Of a DNA stretch of 64,000 nucleotides, positions 1-14,434 are shown piece after piece. A program made the position numbers and the translations under genes. Within the stretch, counting starts at the first letter, position 1, and the number at the start of each line of letters is the position of its first letter. The stretch is from Escherichia coli (GTDB lineage: Bacteria > Pseudomonadota > Gammaproteobacteria > Enterobacterales > Enterobacteriaceae): the NCBI RefSeq assembly GCF_044324785.1, contig NZ_CP172127.1, one strand, 5' to 3'. A model generated the notes under the pieces. The model did not search any database. It had not been told where the DNA came from and saw nothing but the letters and a program-made list of their open reading frames with translations.

Positions 1-508
1 ACAGCGCGCCGTGAACGAAGATTTCGATCTCCATATCTGGCACCTGATTGCGGATCTCTTCAATCTCTTCCAGCGACAGCTCGCGAGAGAGGATCACGCG
101 GGTCAGGCCCATTTGCTGCCAGAATTTCACCGTCGCCCAGTTCACGGCGTTAGCCTGTACCGAGAGATGGATCGGCATTTCAGGGAAGTGCTCACGCACC
201 AGCATAATCAGCCCAGGATCGGACATTATCAGCGCATCCGGCCCCATTTCCACCACCGGTTTCAGGTCACGGATAAAGGTTTTCAGCTTGGCGTTGTGCG
301 GTGCAATGTTGACCACGACATAAAACTTTTTCCCCAGCGCATGGGCTTCATTAATGCCGAGCTGAAGATTTTCGTGGTTGAATTCGTTGTTGCGCACACG
401 CAGGGAGTAACGCGGCTGGCCCGCATAAACAGCATCTGCGCCATAAGCGAAAGCGTAACGCATATTTTTCAGCGTTCCCGCCGGGGAAAGGAGTTCCGGT
501 TTAAACAT
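1..508 (-). CDS. yegQ: 23S rRNA 5-hydroxycytidine synthase / U32-family peptidase YegQ (RlhA), N-terminal part; gene continues beyond window start
   Basis: Minus-strand translation from ATG at 508..506 reads MFKPELLSPAGTLKNMRYAFAYGADAVYAGQPRYSLRVRNNEF..., which I recognise as the YegQ N-terminus. No stop inside the window, so it is absent from the ORF track. The + ORF 11..550 is its antisense shadow. Confidence 0.85.
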   Translation of the reverse strand, partial: MFKPELLSPAGTLKNMRYAFAYGADAVYAGQPRYSLRVRNNEFNHENLQLGINEAHALGKKFYVVVNIAPHNAKLKTFIRDLKPVVEMGPDALIMSDPGLIMLVREHFPEMPIHLSVQANAVNWATVKFWQQMGLTRVILSRELSLEEIEEIRNQVPDMEIEIFVHGAL

Positions 509-709
509 AATTCTCTCGTTCTGATGACAGGTCAGATCCGCTTCACCTGATGAAGCGGCCAGGGGAGTGCCCCCACTTTAAGGGCGGGCATTGTAGCGCA
601 ATCGTTGGGGTTGGCTCCAGTGTAATTGTGATGAGCTTTTCGATGCCTGGCGTACAATTGACATCAGAATTGAGTATATTTACGACCGTGAATGCTAAGG
701 AGTTAAAAC

Positions 710-1315
710 ATGTGGATGTTAAAGAAGGGAATCACGCTGGCTCTGTTGGTTCTGTTTTCTCTGCCCGCTACTGCCGGTCTTTCGCTGGAGGAGACTGCTC
801 GTAAGGTGATTATCGGCTTTCAGCAAAAAGATGCTCAATTAATCAACTCGTTAATTGATAAAAAAACGGGGTTGTATGTTCTCTTCCAGCGTGGCGCTTC
901 GATGGATGTCGAAAATTTTAAGTCAATTGATTTTAAAACGCCTGTTCCCGAGTATTTGCTGTGGCCTTCGGCAGGGGAACATATTCCGCGAGATGAAGAG
1001 TTTGATAAGAAAACTATCCCGGAATTTGACTGTGAACGTGGTTGGAATAAGCACGGATATTTTATTAGCAGCAGCGATACACACCATAAAGTCAGCCGTA
1101 ATTTGGTCTTCACGCAGATGTTTGGTTCACCGCGAAACACTATTTCTGATGCGCAGATTGCCGCAGCGCGTCGAATGGAGTACGGGGCCGTGCGTGTGGT
1201 CGCTGCGCCAGAAGGGGGTAGCGATGGACTGGTATTTTATTTAAGTCAACTTTACGGTTATGACCGTGACTGGTATCTGACGGTGGTGGATCAGATTGGT
1301 GATTGTGGGGCGTGA
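710..1315 (+). CDS. hypothetical secreted/periplasmic protein (201 aa) with N-terminal signal peptide
   Basis: ORF with strong SD (TAAGGAG at 696-702, 7 nt before ATG 710). N-terminus MWMLKKGITLALLVLFSLPATAG has a signal-peptide shape. No family recognised. Confidence 0.6.
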   Translation: MWMLKKGITLALLVLFSLPATAGLSLEETARKVIIGFQQKDAQLINSLIDKKTGLYVLFQRGASMDVENFKSIDFKTPVPEYLLWPSAGEHIPRDEEFDKKTIPEFDCERGWNKHGYFISSSDTHHKVSRNLVFTQMFGSPRNTISDAQIAAARRMEYGAVRVVAAPEGGSDGLVFYLSQLYGYDRDWYLTVVDQIGDCGA

Positions 1316-1345
1316 TAAAGATTTATTCGCCCGCAAGCAGTGATG

Positions 1346-2746
1346 CTATTTAAAAGGTATGTAACCCCTTAATCTGTTGTGAAGTTCCGGATTGCGGGTA
1401 AAAAGCGCCTGAAGTTGCTGACGCTGGGGAGCATTCGGTTGAATGCCCGAAAGATTGAAATTGCGTTGCCATATTGCGAGCTGTTTATCTGCAAATTCTT
1501 CAGTTAGTTTGTGTTGCGATTGCAGAAGAAGAATTAAACCGTCCCATTTGTTCAAGTTATGATACAACCGACAATATGCGCAAGCATGTTTAACTGACGG
1601 TGCGTTTTCCAGCAACTGACGTATTTCCTCGAACGTGAGCGGAACGCGACACCATACACAGATGTTAACCATAAATCGAAGCCCGGAGGCGTCCGGGTTA
1701 GCCAGTGTGGTCAGAATAATCCCTTTGGCACCACCATCAGGATTGGCTTTCGCAAGAATATACATAGCGGCTAATCGCAGTGGGAATACATCCTGTGATA
1801 ATCCCCATTCAGCCAGTTTTAAAATATTGGCATCATGAATGGAGTCCAGCCCGTATAAAGCTGCCCGGCGCTGTGAGGGAGTATATTCAGTCGAGGTGAC
1901 AACATGACGCCAGAATTGCGCAACATCCATGACGTCATTAAGCATGTTTTTAGCGCGTAGACGGATCAACATATTGTTATCCAGCAGTAATGCGCTGTAC
2001 AACGCCGGAGGAATTTCTATAGCTCGGTCAGTAAGGCTAAACAACGTTGCTTGTCGAATACGCGGCCAGCGGTCTTTTAACAGACGAGTTAATACCGCTT
2101 CGCTTAACGGTAATTGTTGACGCAGCCAGTGGGTGACCGCCAGCATTCGTAAACCTTCGTCGGGCTGCTTGAGTATTAAAAGCAGCGAAGATTCATCATT
2201 AAAGTAGCCATATTCAATCAGCGTTTGTAATACTGCGCGGGAGAGTTTTTTATCAGGGCAAGTAAGCCAACACGTTAATTGTGGACGGCTATTTTCTGTC
2301 AATAAAAATCTAAGTATCTCGTCTACAAATGCACGGTGATCGTAACGCTGGCATTGGAGAAGGTTACGTATCATGGGAAGATTAACGGCAAATGCCGCTG
2401 CATTCTTATCCTTCTTTAAATGACGTAACGCTATGGTTGCAGCAAGGCGAACCTCTTTTACCCAGTCATTAGCTGCAAGTAATAATTCTTCTATAGCTGC
2501 AACATCCTCTTTTTGTCCCAGACATTGCACGGCCTTTTCTCGTATATATCCATTGTGGTGATGGGTAAGCTGGCAAAGAACCAGAGTATCGTTGAGATCA
2601 CAATCATGCGCTATATAATTGCCTGGATCGGCTATCATCGCCTGGAGTTGTTGCTGGATAAGAAATAATTCACAGTCAACAGAATTATTCATTTCGACAT
2701 TAAACAAAACCCTGCGTGTAAATAATGTACGCAATCCTTTGAGCAT
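1346..2746 (-). CDS. hypothetical HEAT/armadillo-like repeat protein (466 aa)
   Basis: Long ORF with an AAGGA SD upstream of ATG 2746. Repeated alpha-helical motifs (VRLAATIALRHL, LRLAAMYILAKANPDGG, IRLRAKNML) typical of HEAT/PBS-lyase-like repeats. No U32 peptidase motifs. Confidence 0.65.
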   Translation of the reverse strand: MLKGLRTLFTRRVLFNVEMNNSVDCELFLIQQQLQAMIADPGNYIAHDCDLNDTLVLCQLTHHHNGYIREKAVQCLGQKEDVAAIEELLLAANDWVKEVRLAATIALRHLKKDKNAAAFAVNLPMIRNLLQCQRYDHRAFVDEILRFLLTENSRPQLTCWLTCPDKKLSRAVLQTLIEYGYFNDESSLLLILKQPDEGLRMLAVTHWLRQQLPLSEAVLTRLLKDRWPRIRQATLFSLTDRAIEIPPALYSALLLDNNMLIRLRAKNMLNDVMDVAQFWRHVVTSTEYTPSQRRAALYGLDSIHDANILKLAEWGLSQDVFPLRLAAMYILAKANPDGGAKGIILTTLANPDASGLRFMVNICVWCRVPLTFEEIRQLLENAPSVKHACAYCRLYHNLNKWDGLILLLQSQHKLTEEFADKQLAIWQRNFNLSGIQPNAPQRQQLQALFTRNPELHNRLRGYIPFK

Positions 2747-2868
2747 AATTTTCCTTATCAGTTATGAGGAGAAAACTCATTTCATGATTAATAATTTCTT
2801 GAGGGATAGTAACTCTGTGGTGAGAGAAAATAAAGCCGGACGCCAACAACCCACGCCCGGCATCGTAA

Positions 2869-3201
2869 TTACGTATTGTCTTTCACCGTCTGGCTTGTGC
2901 CATTGGCTTTAACGGAGGCAATTCCGGTTTCACGAGATTGCGCGGTGGCGTACATCTGGCTGGAGCCGATAATTTGATGATTGGCGGCTTTCAGATTGAA
3001 ATAGAATTTGCCGTTGCTTGCCGTTTTTTTCTCATAGCGTTCTTCTTGCGGGCTGTTGCTACGCACCGACGCGATGCCCTTTTCCGCAGAGGCTTTTGAT
3101 GTATACAGCTCGCTGGTGAGGATAGTCTCACCATTGCCCGCTTTTAGCACAAACCGAAATTGATTATCACTGCTCTTACTGAGTTCAAACCAACCAGCCA
3201 T
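2869..3201 (-). CDS. yegP: UPF0339/DUF1508 protein YegP (110 aa)
   Basis: Translation from ATG 3201 (AAGGAG SD 5 nt upstream) reads MAGWFELSKSSDNQFRFVLKAGNGE..., matching YegP. The track ORF is 13 codons longer via an upstream start. Confidence 0.85.
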   Translation of the reverse strand: MAGWFELSKSSDNQFRFVLKAGNGETILTSELYTSKASAEKGIASVRSNSPQEERYEKKTASNGKFYFNLKAANHQIIGSSQMYATAQSRETGIASVKANGTSQTVKDNT

Positions 3202-3336
3202 AATGACTCCTTGATTGAAATTGCGTATCGAAAACAGCATCTAAAAGGACTGTTTACCGATTAAAGTATGAGCGATTTTCTGGTGCCTGCCAGGGCGAAG
3301 AGATAATGTCAGTTTGCTGACCATGCGTGGAATAAT

Positions 3337-3372
3337 GTTGCCGGATGCGGCGTGAATGCCTTCTCCGGCAGG
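3337..3372. repeat. REP (repetitive extragenic palindrome) element between baeR and yegP
   Basis: Sequence GTTGCCGGATGCGGCGTGAATGCCTTCTCCGGCAGG matches the enterobacterial REP consensus (GCCGGATGCGGCGTGAACGCCTTATCCGGC). Confidence 0.6.
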
Positions 3373-3380
3373 TAAAAATG

Positions 3381-4103
3381 TTAAACGATGCGGCAGGCGT
3401 CGGCTTCCCAGCGGTAACCGACGCCGTAAACGGCGCGGATAAATGACTGTTCGGCGTCGAGAGATTCCAGCTTGCGACGCAGGTTTTTAATGTGGCTGTC
3501 GATGGTGCGGTCGGTTACTACGCGGTAGTCGTCATAAAGATGATTGAGCAATTGCTCGCGGGAGAACACTTTTCCTGGTTCATGAGAGAGCGTTTTCAGC
3601 AGACGAAATTCCGCAGGCGTCAGGTCAAGCATTTTACCGCGCCATGAAGCCTGAAAACGACCTTCGTCGATAATCAACGGGCTTTCAGCATCCTGTTGCT
3701 GCAACTCACGCTGCGGTTTGCAACGGCGCAAAATGGTTTTGACGCGCGCTACCACTTCCCGTGGGCTGTACGGTTTGCAGATGTAGTCATCTGCGCCAAT
3801 TTCCAGCCCCAGCAGGCGGTCGATCTCTTCGATTTTTGCTGTCACCATCACGATCGGAATGTCAGAAAAATGACGAATCTCCCGACACAGCGTCAGGCCA
3901 TCGGTACCTGGCAGCATCAGATCGAGCAGGATCAGATCCGGCGGCGACTGGTGAACGTAGGGCAGTACCTGATCGCCGTGGCTGATAAGCGTCGGCGCAT
4001 AGCTCGCAGCACGCAGATAATCAATGAGCAACTGCCCCAGCTTCGGTTCATCTTCCACGATCAAAATACGCGGTGTGTTTTCGTCGATTGGTAACTCGGT
4101 CAT
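3381..4103 (-). CDS. baeR: response regulator BaeR (OmpR family), 240 aa
   Basis: Full-length translation [26 protein letters not shown]... recognised as BaeR. 4-bp overlap with baeS. Confidence 0.95.
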
Positions 4104-5503
4104 ACTTCTCTCTGTAAATCCCGTTCCAGCGGTAACTCTACTGTAATGCTTACCCCGCCAAAAGGCGAATGGGCAGCAATAATGCGGCCATTATGGGCTT
4201 CAACAATGTTCAGGCAAATCGCCAGCCCCAGCCCGGAACCGCCGCTGGCGCGGTTGCGGGAACCTTCGGTGCGATAAAAACGTTCAAACAATTTTTGTAG
4301 CTGATCGTCACTGACGCCCGGCGCGCTGTCAGCAAAGGTCAGGCGCACCGTTTTGTCGTGCTGCTCGGCAGAGATTTTCAGGCTGCCGCCACTGTCAGTG
4401 TAGCGCAGGCTGTTTTCCAGTAAGTTATTGAATAACTGCATTAAACGGTCGCGATCGCCAAATACGGTAATACTGTCTGGCAGGGAAAATTGCAGTTTCA
4501 GGCCACGGCTGGCGAATCGTTCGCGAAATGCGCCGCCCGCCACTTCCAGCAGTGGGATCAAATCTACCGGTGCTTTTTGATAGGCGAGAGCGCCTTCATC
4601 AGACATCGACAACTGATGGAGATCGTCAACCAGTTTGGTCAGTGTACCGACCTCCGCCTGTAAAGACGCCACCGTCTCCGGCGTGAATTTACGCACGCCA
4701 TCCTGAATGGCTTCCAGTTCACCGCGCAGCACCGCTAATGGCGTACGCAGTTCGTGAGAAATATCGGCCATAAAATCGCGCCGCATTTGCTGGTTTTTCT
4801 CCAGCGTGCTGGCAAGCTGGTTGAAGTCTTGCGCCAGTTTGCCCAGTTCATCTTCACTGGTGGGCGTCACGCGGGTTGTGAAATCGCCCGCCGCCAGTTT
4901 GTGCGTGCCGTCCACCAGCCGTTTGACCGGGGCCAACAGACCACGCGCCAGCAGAAAGGTGGCGAGCGCCGCGAGTAACGTTGCCAGGGCGACAATCAGC
5001 CAGCTGGTTTGCCGCTGTTGTTTATCGAAATTGATATCAGTATTGCGGGTCAGTCGCTCAACAGGGGAGGCAATCACCGCACCCACTTCCGCACCGTTGA
5101 CCAGAATGGGTCGCCGTGTACCGTCAGGTGGAATCGGCGCTCGCGGACCAACCAGCACTTTGTTGTTTTGATCAACCACCCAGAACTGAGTACGCCAGCC
5201 GTGTGGTGGCATACCCGGGCCGGGTTTATCTTCCGAATTATCGTGTTCAAATGAGCGCAGGATCTGAAAGACAAAGCGATCATTGTTGCGCAGGAAGCGC
5301 CAGTTGCCATGCTGCGCATACTGCTCGCCAAGCGCATCACTTAACAGTTGTAATCGCTGTTCATTACCATGCTTGATGTAATCAATAAAGCCACGCTCAA
5401 AACTGATACGCACCGCCCAGTGCATACTGATCAGCAAGACAATGCAGGTGGCGAAAATCGCCAGAAACAGTTTACCGGTAATACCGGGTCGCCAGAACTT
5501 CAT
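4100..5503 (-). CDS. baeS: sensor histidine kinase BaeS, 467 aa
   Basis: TM segments, H-box (SHELRTPL) and ATPase domain. Position between mdtD and baeR. Confidence 0.95.
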
Positions 5504-14416: not shown

Positions 14417-14434
14417 GCCAATAAGGGAGAAAAA
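14417..14434 (-). promoter_or_regulatory. putative BaeR binding box in the mdtA promoter
   Basis: Minus-strand sequence TTTTTCTCCCTTATTGGC lies ~55-70 bp upstream of the mdtA ATG and matches the BaeR box consensus as I recall it (TTTTTCTCCATDATTGGC) at 16 of 18 positions. Confidence 0.5.

What the first reader, a model, noticed from the sequence alone, without database searches (positions are those of the whole stretch)
1346..2746. 466-aa HEAT/ARM-like repeat protein with no recognisable enzymatic domain
Long open frame with good SD and repeated amphipathic helical motifs typical of HEAT/PBS-lyase-like solenoids. Such proteins in bacteria are usually protein-binding scaffolds, immunity or adaptor proteins. 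Nothing in the sequence suggests a catalytic domain.
Basis: seen in the sequence. Interest (0 to 1): 0.65.

Follow-up and report, generated by a model that had tools for sequence, protein, structure and literature searches.

The report
HEAT-repeat protein tied to RNA repair
This rare E. coli gene really does encode a non-enzymatic HEAT-repeat solenoid, and its many uncharacterised relatives in other bacteria often sit inside RNA-repair operons (RtcB ligase, RtcA, RlaP, tRNA gene arrays), so it is probably a helper in RNA or tRNA damage repair.

Summary
The ORF is real: 466 aa, on the MINUS strand (1346..2746), with a good SD. dN/dS is about 0.22-0.26, so it is under purifying selection but evolves much faster than its neighbours. 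It is an all-alpha PBS-lyase-type HEAT solenoid (Pfam HEAT_2, alphaRep matches, AF2 pLDDT 85.5, strict 31-residue periodicity) with no catalytic domain. RefSeq already calls it 'HEAT repeat domain-containing protein'.

It lies in a 2.2-kb accessory segment between yegP and trhP/yegQ, downstream of mdtABCD-baeSR. It is intact in about 39 of 5,426 complete E. coli genomes, decayed in about 57 and absent from K-12. Homologues at 37-60% identity occupy the same slot in Phytobacter and other relatives.

New here: an exhaustive profile search shows a large full-length family (1,299 cluster representatives at E<=1e-10, many phyla), all unnamed. In about 20% of non-redundant loci the gene is co-oriented with and adjacent to rtcB, rtcA or rlaP, and in one clade also to an HNH gene and tRNA gene arrays (P about 1e-12). 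One locus is a full RNA-repair island.

Best reading: a non-catalytic RNA/tRNA- or RtcB-binding accessory of RNA repair, functionally analogous to Ro/Rsr but not a member of that family. The E. coli copy is unlinked from rtcBA, so for this gene the function is inferred, not shown.

The parts
1346..2746 (-). CDS of the 466-aa HEAT-repeat protein (RefSeq 'HEAT repeat domain-containing protein'; 97.9% identical to WP_116836481 of strain N3)
   Evidence: ORF list; annotation in E. coli genomes; dN/dS 0.22-0.26; Pfam HEAT_2; AF2 solenoid model
2752..2756 (-). Shine-Dalgarno AAGGA, 5 nt upstream of the ATG at 2746-2744
   Evidence: read directly from the sequence
2825..2861 (-). Terminator-like hairpin plus T-run downstream of yegP (GCCGGGCG...CGTCCGGC TTTATTTTCT). 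It separates the HEAT gene from the baeSR-yegP transcription unit, and its 3' side (2835) is also the right-hand boundary of the accessory segment
   Evidence: terminator scan; sequence; K-12 alignment resumes at 2835
600..2834 (.). Accessory segment (2,235 bp) absent from E. coli K-12, where about 21 bp stand in its place. It holds the 201-aa ORF and the HEAT gene
   Evidence: blastn of the window against K-12 MG1655 baeS-yegR
710..1315 (+). 201-aa hypothetical protein with an N-terminal signal-peptide-like segment, convergent with the HEAT gene. It is a separate sub-module (window about 623-1351) found in only 5 complete E. coli genomes plus an Escherichia cryptic-clade strain, and is not a conserved partner of the HEAT gene
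   Evidence: no family hit in NCBIfam, PADLOC or PHROGs
2869..3201 (-). yegP (DUF1508), the conserved flank upstream of the HEAT gene
   Evidence: annotation of strain N3 and K-12
1..508 (-). 5' part of trhP/yegQ (tRNA U34 hydroxylation), the conserved flank on the other side
   Evidence: annotation of strain N3 mapped onto the window; K-12 alignment 1-599
3381..4103 (-). baeR, the end of the mdtABCD-baeSR operon. In Phytobacter the HEAT gene follows baeR directly

Best explanation
The gene encodes a cytoplasmic, non-catalytic PBS-type HEAT solenoid of about 13 helical hairpins. It belongs to a large, so far unnamed bacterial family. Members of this family act as accessory factors of RNA-damage repair. 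Most likely they bind a damaged RNA substrate (a broken tRNA or ribosome-associated RNA) and/or the RtcB ligase or RlaP nucleotidyltransferase, and so recruit, present or protect substrates for healing and sealing. This is the role the HEAT-like toroid Ro/Rsr plays in other Rtc operons. In E. coli the gene is a stand-alone, own-promoter copy in an old, eroding accessory slot between yegP and trhP, unlinked from rtcBA. SHOWN: the gene is real and under purifying selection; the fold and repeat class; the absence of a catalytic domain; the size and spread of the family; the statistically strong co-oriented adjacency to rtcB/rtcA/rlaP/HNH/tRNA arrays in many lineages, including one inside the enterobacterial clade. 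INFERRED: that the protein binds RNA or RtcB; that the unlinked E. coli copy keeps that role.
For: (1) Family: profile search of 1.84 billion representatives gave 1,299 proteins at E<=1e-10, all single full-length matches of about 440 or 540 aa. Family-specific invariant residues W95, R134, H137, K400-W401, W426, N431 and Q441 sit on top of the HEAT consensus. (2) Neighbourhoods: in 80 metagenomic loci fetched only by the motif NDWVPQVR, RtcB was the top recurrent neighbour and always on the same strand. A six-frame search found RtcB in 11, RlaP in 4 and RtcA in 4 non-redundant groups, with gaps as small as -1 to 15 nt and shuffled gene orders (rtcB-rtcA-HEAT, rtcB-HEAT-rtcA, rtcB-HEAT-rlaP-rtcA). 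RtcA and RtcB identities were confirmed with NCBIfam. In total 11 of 56 non-redundant groups are Rtc-linked, binomial P about 1e-12 against a generous null. (3) Named genome: Buttiauxella has rtcR / rtcB-rlaP-HEAT, with the ORFs abutting. It lies inside the enterobacterial clade that contains the E. coli protein, and Rtc-linked members are scattered over the whole tree. (4) One clade has rtcB - tRNA array (up to 10 tRNAs of different isotypes) - HNH - HEAT - tRNA (HNH confirmed by Pfam). tRNA L-arrays, HNH and rtcB are known to be co-located and co-induced under translational stress (PMC8421152). (5) Independent check: the locus of P0034, chosen blind, is an RNA-repair island with HTH-RlaP-HEAT next to RtcB-PrfH, an Rnl-type RNA ligase, an HD/kinase gene, KptA/Tpt1, ADP-ribosylglycohydrolase, NADAR and NUDIX. 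(6) The family is basic: median pI 9.2, 84% above pI 8, E. coli protein 8.8. (7) Precedent: Ro/Rsr, a HEAT-repeat ring that binds misfolded RNA, is encoded in rtcR-ro-rtcB-rtcA operons (PMC3854526).
Against: The E. coli gene is not next to any Rtc gene. Its neighbours are yegP, trhP, a secreted hypothetical and, in other strains, a ParD remnant or a TPR protein. About 80% of the sampled loci show no RNA-repair neighbour, and contexts in Rahnella, Affinibrenneria, Serratia, Budvicia, Xenorhabdus and Pseudoalteromonas are unrelated to each other. No sigma54/RtcR-type promoter lies upstream of the E. coli gene. There is no direct evidence of RNA binding; basic pI is weak evidence. The gene is being lost in E. 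coli (intact in about 39 of 5,426 genomes, IS1-disrupted or truncated in about 57) and evolves 3-20 times faster than its flanks by dN/dS. That pattern fits a dispensable or conflict-related role as well. Guilt by association says nothing about the molecular mechanism.
Confidence: 0.42

Rival explanations
1. The E. coli copy is a dispensable, eroding relic. It would be a generic HEAT scaffold whose present function, if any, has nothing to do with RNA repair, and the Rtc linkage would apply only to other subfamilies.
For: It is intact in only about 39 of 5,426 complete genomes, with truncated or IS1-disrupted remnants in about 57. It is frameshifted in Escherichia sp. MOD1-EC7003. dN/dS is 0.22-0.26 versus 0.01-0.09 in the flanks. 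No Rtc neighbour and no sigma54 site are present in E. coli. No sigma70-like promoter was found upstream on the minus strand.
Against: dN/dS is still well below 1 over 466 codons, with no stop codons in many divergent alleles (92-98% identity). The family-specific invariant residues are all retained in the E. coli protein. The gene has persisted in the same slot from Phytobacter to Escherichia.
Confidence: 0.2
2. It is a conflict protein. It would act as an immunity-type neutraliser that binds and blocks an incoming RNase toxin (CDI, Rhs or colicin type), or shields its RNA target, rather than assisting the ligase.
For: In Serratia the gene lies directly after a CdiA (PT-VENN/deaminase C-terminus) and DUF6911 pair. 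The HEAT-PBS protein YibA, which the family profile matches (E 1.6e-5), lies downstream of rhsA in E. coli K-12 (from my own knowledge, not tested here). Other support: patchy distribution, fast evolution, repeated loss; ParD antitoxin remnants next to it; RNA-repair loci are themselves conflict-associated.
Against: At 450 aa it is large for an immunity protein. No toxin gene or toxin fragment lies upstream in E. coli, Phytobacter, Buttiauxella or most other loci. No toxin-type family appeared among the recurring neighbour clusters. It is not in PADLOC except for a generic repeat match.
Confidence: 0.15
3. It is a member of the Bae envelope-stress unit. The gene would be co-transcribed with, or regulated by, mdtABCD-baeSR and serve efflux or envelope stress.
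For: It is same-strand and immediately downstream of baeR in Phytobacter (84-nt gap), and downstream of baeR plus a secreted 238-aa protein in an unnamed relative and in an Escherichia cryptic clade.
Against: In E. coli a terminator-like hairpin follows yegP. The BaeR box is found only at the mdtA promoter (14417-14434), with none within 3 mismatches near the gene. Outside this small group of Enterobacteriaceae the family is never next to bae/mdt genes. The protein is cytoplasmic with no envelope-related domain.
Confidence: 0.07
4. It is an anti-phage defence sensor or a single-gene defence system.
For: PADLOC HEAT-ARM_XIII match at E 1.6e-7 over aa 56-253. It sits in a variable chromosomal slot with patchy distribution. 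It is next to a Schlafen-like helicase in Affinibrenneria and an Mrr nuclease in Xenorhabdus.
Against: The PADLOC hit covers 190 positions of a 1,972-position profile and is a generic repeat match. There is no effector domain. There are no homologues in 50,697 phage records, and only megaplasmid or chromid hits among plasmids. No defence genes recur among the neighbours.
Confidence: 0.05
5. It is a cryptic enzyme built from HEAT repeats: a bilin lyase (CpcE/F), a di-iron hydroxylase (DOHH) or an AlkD-type DNA glycosylase.
For: The family profile matches CpcE/F (4.7e-9) and DOHH (1.8e-4) chains. There is a weak Pfam DNA_alkylation hit (E 0.14). The Rahnella copy is divergent from the chuW-chuX-chuY anaerobic haem-degradation genes. 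Invariant W, R, H and N residues exist.
Confidence: 0.05

Closest known systems
Ro60/Rsr (TROVE-domain HEAT-like toroid) of rtcR-rsr-Y RNA-rtcB-rtcA operons
   Same: It is an alpha-helical HEAT-type repeat protein without catalytic activity. It is encoded co-oriented in RtcB/RtcA RNA-repair operons, and small RNA genes (Y RNAs there, tRNA arrays here) can lie in the same operon (PMC3854526).
PBS-lyase-type HEAT proteins (Pfam HEAT_2/HEAT_PBS: CpcE/CpcF, E. coli YibA, MTH187, designed alphaRep)
   Same: It has the same repeat class and consensus (D..VR..AA.ALG, about 31 residues). Significant sequence matches were found.
   Different: Those proteins are 130-280 aa and do not share the family-specific N-terminal (NDW, R-x-x-H) and C-terminal (NKW[DE], W...FN, Q) motifs or the full-length architecture. 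No bilin or phycobilisome context exists.
Accessory genes of RtcB-centred RNA-repair loci (RtcA, RlaP, PrfH, archease; accessory subunits of the eukaryotic tRNA ligase complex)
   Same: Genomic behaviour: it is a facultative, co-oriented and often overlapping member of rtcB operons, with variable gene order.
   Different: All of those are enzymes or have defined folds unrelated to HEAT. No biochemical role is known for this family, and I found no mention of it in the accessible literature.
PADLOC HEAT-ARM_XIII
   Same: Significant profile match (E 1.6e-7) over aa 56-253.
   Different: The match covers about 10% of a 1,972-position profile and is repeat-to-repeat only. The size, architecture and neighbourhoods differ, and I did not establish what system that model belongs to.
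AlkC/AlkD HEAT-like-repeat DNA glycosylases
   Same: They are nucleic-acid-binding helical-repeat proteins that are basic. There is a weak Pfam DNA_alkylation hit (E 0.14).
   Different: The hit is not significant, is not recovered across the family and is absent from the fold searches.

Membership tests
HEAT_2 / PBS-lyase-type HEAT repeat proteins (Pfam PF13646, clan ARM-like) | Significant match to the repeat HMM | tested here: met
   HEAT_2 i-E 8e-5 at aa 57-108; 49 of 60 family members at E<=0.001; alphaRep chains at E 7e-8 with the single sequence and 2.8e-40 with the profile
HEAT_2 / PBS-lyase-type HEAT repeat proteins (Pfam PF13646, clan ARM-like) | Tandem helix-turn-helix hairpins forming an alpha-solenoid with a period of about 30-40 residues | tested here: met
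Ro60/Rsr (TROVE) | TROVE domain plus C-terminal vWA/MIDAS domain | tested here: not met
Ro60/Rsr (TROVE) | Binds Y RNA or misfolded RNA in a closed ring | not testable with these tools
Only the basic pI (8.8; family median 9.2) was computed
Component of Rtc-type RNA-repair operons | Co-oriented adjacency to rtcB/rtcA/rlaP recurring in unrelated lineages (family level) | tested here: met
   11 of 56 non-redundant metagenomic groups, P about 1e-12; Buttiauxella rtcR/rtcB-rlaP-HEAT; RNA-repair island around P0034; linked members scattered over the family tree
Component of Rtc-type RNA-repair operons | This E. coli gene itself lies in, or is co-regulated with, an rtc operon (sigma54/RtcR promoter) | tested here: not met
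   Its neighbours are yegP, trhP and a hypothetical. No sigma54-like site lies in 2747-2900 on the minus strand. Co-regulation in trans was not testable
CpcE/CpcF-type bilin lyases | Heterodimeric lyase pair in a phycobiliprotein gene context, binding a bilin | tested here: not met
   Only repeat-level similarity. No paired subunit or phycobiliprotein genes occur in any of about 100 loci. Bilin binding was not testable
Deoxyhypusine hydroxylase-like HEAT enzymes | Four conserved His-Glu motifs coordinating di-iron | tested here: not met
   No repeated H-E pairs occur among the conserved columns of the 60-member alignment. The DOHH match at E 1.8e-4 is repeat-level
AlkC/AlkD HEAT-like-repeat glycosylases (PF08713) | Significant match to DNA_alkylation or the AlkD fold | tested here: not met
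Known anti-phage defence systems (PADLOC v2) | Match to a system-specific protein model together with the partner genes of that system | tested here: inconclusive
   A partial match to HEAT-ARM_XIII (E 1.6e-7, 190 of 1,972 profile positions). The flanking genes have no PADLOC hit. No phage homologues exist
Polymorphic-toxin immunity proteins | Located immediately downstream of a toxin C-terminal domain gene, co-varying with it | tested here: not met
   Only the Serratia locus follows a CdiA/immunity pair, with a 306-nt gap. No toxin gene is present in E. coli or in the recurrent neighbour clusters

The most novel reading that the evidence does not exclude
This HEAT family would be a previously unrecognised core accessory of bacterial RNA repair. 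It would be a tRNA- or broken-RNA-binding solenoid that gives RtcB (with RlaP and RtcA) its substrate specificity, or that shields or sponges tRNAs against anticodon nucleases, working together with the supernumerary tRNA arrays and HNH genes it is linked to. E. coli would then carry a natural presence/absence polymorphism for this factor, which makes the long-standing question of what RtcB actually repairs in vivo, and how substrates are chosen, directly testable in isogenic backgrounds.
Probability: 0.25. Interest if true: 0.72.

Novelty: new variant of a known kind. Interest (0 to 1): 0.5.

Why it matters
The physiological substrates and partner proteins of the bacterial Rtc RNA-repair system are still debated, and RlaP was characterised biochemically only in a late-2025 preprint. 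A widespread, basic, non-catalytic HEAT solenoid repeatedly wedged between rtcB, rlaP and rtcA, and in one clade between a tRNA array and its HNH gene, is a strong candidate for a missing substrate-recognition or protection factor. It would be a functional counterpart of Ro/Rsr built on a different scaffold.

For E. coli genomics the result also explains a rare 'HEAT repeat domain-containing protein' annotation. It is an ancient occupant of the baeR-trhP interval that most lineages, including K-12, have deleted. If the RNA-repair link fails for the E. coli copy, the finding reduces to an ordinary, already annotated accessory gene of unknown function.

Tried and rejected
1. The word-indexed homologue search returned only 16 near-identical proteins and made the family look Escherichia-specific. 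The exhaustive profile search overturned that.

2. Curated family libraries: NCBIfam, PHROGs and PADLOC gave nothing specific.

4. AlkD-like glycosylase lead from a weak Pfam hit: rejected.

5. DOHH or bilin-lyase enzyme lead: rejected as repeat-level similarity.

6. Bae regulon idea: a BaeR-box search found only the mdtA promoter, and a terminator lies after yegP.

7. Sigma54/RtcR promoter upstream of the E. coli gene: none. The 39 window-wide matches equal chance expectation.

8. The 201-aa neighbour as a partner: unrelated to the 238-aa secreted protein that precedes the gene in other taxa, and present in only 5 complete genomes.

9. Mobile-element origin: no phage hits, only megaplasmid hits. 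dS is similar to the flanks, so it is not a recent import.

10. The search for related loci with the 60-member alignment failed because no stretch was conserved enough. I used A1 for genomes (4 loci only) and a motif-restricted alignment, A3, for metagenomes.

11. My first greedy ORF calls produced 'shadow' ORFs that hid the HNH gene and the tRNA array. This was corrected with six-frame, Rfam and ARAGORN searches.

12. Literature: no accessible paper links this HEAT family to RtcB. The key comparative-genomics paper (Burroughs and Aravind 2016, NAR 44:8525) is not held, so prior description there cannot be excluded.

13. Rfam scan of window 1-4200: no RNA family.
Full report
OBSERVATION. The window is E. 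coli chromosome (98-99% identity to many complete genomes). An ATG-initiated ORF of 466 aa occupies exactly 1346..2746, but on the minus strand. An AAGGA Shine-Dalgarno lies at 2752-2756, 5 nt before the start. On the minus strand the gene order is mdtC-mdtD-baeS-baeR-yegP-[this gene]. A convergent 201-aa ORF follows (710..1315, + strand), and then trhP/yegQ. RefSeq/PGAP already annotates the ORF as 'HEAT repeat domain-containing protein'.

IS IT A REAL GENE? Yes. Between E. coli alleles dN/dS is 0.22-0.26, with 39 non-synonymous versus 47 synonymous differences in the most divergent pair. Against a 60%-identical orthologue it is 0.12. The flanking baeS, baeR, yegP and yegQ have dN/dS of 0.01-0.09. 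The gene is therefore under purifying selection but evolves several-fold faster than its neighbours. Its dS within E. coli (0.04-0.17) is in the range of the flanks, which argues against a recent foreign import.

IS IT A HEAT SOLENOID WITHOUT AN ENZYME DOMAIN? Yes.
- Pfam gives HEAT_2 (i-E 8e-5, aa 57-108), and everything else is insignificant.
- The PDB sequence search hits designed alphaRep proteins, which are consensus PBS-HEAT repeats, at E 7e-8.
- A family profile hits alphaRep (2.8e-40), phycocyanobilin lyase CpcE/F, YibA, DOHH and MTH187.
- HEAT_2 is significant in 49 of 60 diverse relatives.
- AlphaFold2 with a small alignment gives a confident all-alpha model (pLDDT 85.5, pTM 0.71, 29 helices; only residues 1-22 are unreliable).
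- Helix-pair starts at 166, 197, 228, 259, 290 and 321 are exactly 31 residues apart. The canonical D..(V/I)R..A..L motif occurs at 6 separate sites versus 1.1 +/- 1.0 in shuffles.
- NCBIfam and PHROGs have nothing. PADLOC gives a partial repeat-level match to HEAT-ARM_XIII.

LOCAL GENOMICS.
- Relative to K-12 MG1655, window 600-2834 (2,235 bp) is an extra segment replaced by about 21 bp. Its right edge coincides with the terminator-like hairpin after yegP at 2825-2861.
- The full-length gene is found in about 39 of 5,426 complete E. coli genomes. A further 57 or so carry remnants: the 3'-terminal 308 nt, IS1-disrupted copies, or a 5' truncation.
- The interval is a mosaic among strains: yegP-HEAT-hyp201 (this window, 5 genomes), yegP-HEAT, yegP-HEAT-ParD remnant, IS1-dHEAT-ParD, and yegP-TPR protein-dHEAT.
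- Homologues sit in the same slot between baeR and yegQ, on the same strand, in an Escherichia cryptic-clade strain (frameshifted there), an unnamed enterobacterium (60% identity, preceded by a secreted 238-aa protein and followed by ParD) and Phytobacter (37-42%, directly after baeR). The flanking BaeR and YegQ proteins stay 90-95% identical.
- The simplest reading (inference) is an old resident of this interval that diverges fast and is repeatedly lost.
- A BaeR box is found only at the mdtA promoter (14417-14434, a positive control) and not near this gene. No sigma54-type site and no Rfam family occur around it.

THE FAMILY IS LARGE.
- The word-indexed search suggested an Escherichia-only protein. 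An exhaustive HMM search of 1.84 billion cluster representatives found 2,867 proteins at E<=1e-3 and 1,299 at E<=1e-10. Among the 150 best that are listed, nearly all are single matches covering about residues 57-450, in a class of about 440 aa and a class of about 540 aa whose N-terminal extension looks like further HEAT repeats.
- Named members occur in Serratia, Xenorhabdus, Buttiauxella, Budvicia, Rahnella, Affinibrenneria, Yersinia, Pseudoalteromonas, Pseudomonas, Burkholderia, Firmicutes, Planctomycetes and Myxococcota. All are called only 'HEAT repeat' or 'PBS lyase' protein.
- Across 60 members (21-60% identity) the invariant positions are G66, R69, D94, W95, L129, R134, W401 and W426. 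Near-invariant positions include N93, H137, K400, N431 and Q441.
- R69, D94, D256 and R262 belong to the generic repeat signature. W95, R134/H137 and the C-terminal NKW[DE]...W...FN...Q block are family-specific.
- There are no phage homologues. Plasmid hits are limited to megaplasmids, plus a short fragment on one small E. coli plasmid.

WHAT DO THE NEIGHBOURS SAY? Hand-inspected contexts first looked unrelated: Rahnella, Affinibrenneria, Pseudoalteromonas, Serratia (just after a CdiA toxin/immunity pair) and Budvicia (followed by an RNase T-like gene). Buttiauxella, however, has rtcR / rtcB-rlaP-HEAT with abutting ORFs.

I then fetched 80 metagenomic loci using only the family motif NDWVPQVR. 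I dereplicated the HEAT proteins at 70% identity (68 groups) and clustered all neighbouring ORFs.
- The top recurrent neighbour was RtcB, always co-oriented.
- A six-frame search raised this to 11 non-redundant groups with RtcB, 4 with RlaP and 4 with a 335-aa protein that NCBIfam identifies as RNA 3'-phosphate cyclase RtcA (372 bits against a cut-off of 352).
- Gene orders are shuffled (rtcB-rtcA-HEAT, rtcB-HEAT-rtcA, rtcB-HEAT-rlaP-rtcA, rtcB-rlaP-HEAT) and gaps are often -1 to 15 nt. That is the signature of a functional module rather than inherited synteny.
- In the unbiased metagenome sample 11 of 56 groups (20%) are Rtc-linked. Under a generous null of 0.6% the binomial P is about 1e-12.
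- Rtc-linked members are scattered across the family tree, including Buttiauxella inside the enterobacterial clade that holds the E. coli protein.

TRNA ARRAYS. In one clade the space between rtcB and the HEAT gene is not empty.
- Rfam and ARAGORN find co-oriented tRNA gene arrays: 10 in L033/L034, 7 in L029 and 3-5 in L037. The isotypes include Gly, Gln, Asp, Phe, Val, His, Thr, Pro, Ile, Met and Glu.
- The array is followed by a 190-aa HNH endonuclease (Pfam HNH_5, 5.3e-16) directly upstream of the HEAT gene.
- A further tRNA or odd tRNA-like gene lies 150-250 nt downstream.
- The HNH gene accompanies the HEAT gene in 5 non-redundant groups. In all, 14 of 68 groups have Rtc genes, the HNH gene or an array within 2.5 kb.
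- This matches published 'L-arrays' of tRNA genes, which are conserved next to an HNH gene and rtcB and are co-induced with them under translational stress in Anabaena (PMC8421152). That paper's text does not mention a HEAT protein.

INDEPENDENT CHECK. The locus of P0034, chosen before I knew its context, is an RNA-repair island. It has HTH-RlaP-HEAT (22-nt gap) beside RtcB-PrfH, an Rnl-type RNA ligase, an HD/kinase gene, KptA/Tpt1, an ADP-ribosylglycohydrolase, NADAR, NUDIX and Band_7. Xenorhabdus, by contrast, shows no such link.

INTERPRETATION. Shown: a real, fast-evolving gene for a PBS-type HEAT solenoid with no catalytic domain; membership in a big unnamed family; and a strong, lineage-independent genomic association of that family with RNA healing and sealing genes and with tRNA arrays.

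The main weakness is that the E. coli copy is unlinked from rtcBA, has no sigma54 promoter and is being lost from the species. For this gene the function rests on family-level guilt by association, so my confidence is about 0.4.

Rivals are a decaying relic or unrelated scaffold (0.2), a toxin-neutralising or RNA-shielding conflict protein (0.15), a Bae-regulon member (0.07), a defence sensor (0.05) and a cryptic HEAT-based enzyme (0.05).

NOVELTY. As an annotation the gene is known. As a family it is uncharacterised, and I found no accessible paper connecting it with RtcB, RlaP or tRNA arrays. The 2016 comparative-genomics survey that named RlaP is not held and may have noted it. I therefore rate it a new variant of a known kind: a non-TROVE HEAT accessory of RNA-repair systems. 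Interest is moderate.

Noticed in passing
window 710..1315 (+): A 201-aa ORF with a signal-peptide-like N-terminus (MWMLKKGITLALLVLFSLPATAG...), convergent with the HEAT gene. It has no hit in NCBIfam, PADLOC or PHROGs. It is present in only 5 of 5,426 complete E. coli genomes and in Escherichia sp. MOD1-EC7003. It forms its own indel module (window about 623-1351).
   Followed up: partly
window 2592..2619 (+), inside the HEAT gene, antisense: A near-consensus sigma70-like site (TTGAGA-16-TATAAT, 11/12) on the strand opposite the gene, in its AT-rich 5' part (GC 0.38). The total number of promoter-like sites in the region is not above chance, so this may be fortuitous.
   Followed up: no
L033 3372-4189 and 6453-6526; L029 58-560 and 3077-3152; L037 544-1024 and 3211-3283: Metagenomic rtcB loci carry co-oriented arrays of up to 10 tRNA genes of different isotypes, then an HNH gene, then the HEAT gene. 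A tRNA or tRNA-like gene with a non-standard anticodon loop (ARAGORN 'tRNA-???') follows 150-250 nt after the HEAT gene. The odd tRNA-like genes were not analysed further.
   Followed up: partly
L003 7280-7996; L008 about 3224-3916; L023 4773-5492: A secreted protein of about 238 aa with TPR-like sequence sits immediately upstream of the HEAT gene (4-nt gap in L003). It occurs in an unnamed enterobacterium, in Escherichia sp. MOD1-EC7003 (where it takes the place of yegP) and in E. coli RMDEC465 (annotated 'tetratricopeptide repeat protein'). It is absent from the window and is a possible lineage-specific partner.
   Followed up: partly
L020 2321-2482; L022 2321-2479; L003 9531-9782: An orphan ParD-family antitoxin gene (full length in L003, truncated to about 53 aa in E. 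coli ST540 and strain 1283) lies just downstream of the HEAT gene with no ParE toxin gene. It looks like the remnant of a toxin-antitoxin module in the same variable interval.
   Followed up: no
L008 4017-5326 (Escherichia sp. MOD1-EC7003): The HEAT gene is split into two frames at about residue 208. The N-terminal part is 84% and the C-terminal part 96% identical to the window protein, which suggests a frameshifted, recombinant (mosaic) allele.
   Followed up: no
L012 1-5695 (Serratia proteamaculans): The Serratia homologue lies 306 nt downstream of a CdiA-type filamentous toxin with a PT-VENN/deaminase C-terminus and its DUF6911 immunity gene. This is the only toxin-linked context seen.
   Followed up: partly
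L005 5440-6765 and upstream (Rahnella victoriana): The Rahnella homologue is divergently placed next to chuW/hutW-chuX-chuY-like anaerobic haem-degradation genes. That is an odd neighbour for a 'PBS lyase-like' repeat protein. It was a single occurrence and did not recur elsewhere.
   Followed up: no
window 14417..14434 (-): A BaeR box (TTTTTCTCCCTTATTGGC, 1 mismatch to the consensus) lies upstream of mdtA. It was used as the positive control and is the only such site in the 64-kb window.
   Followed up: yes
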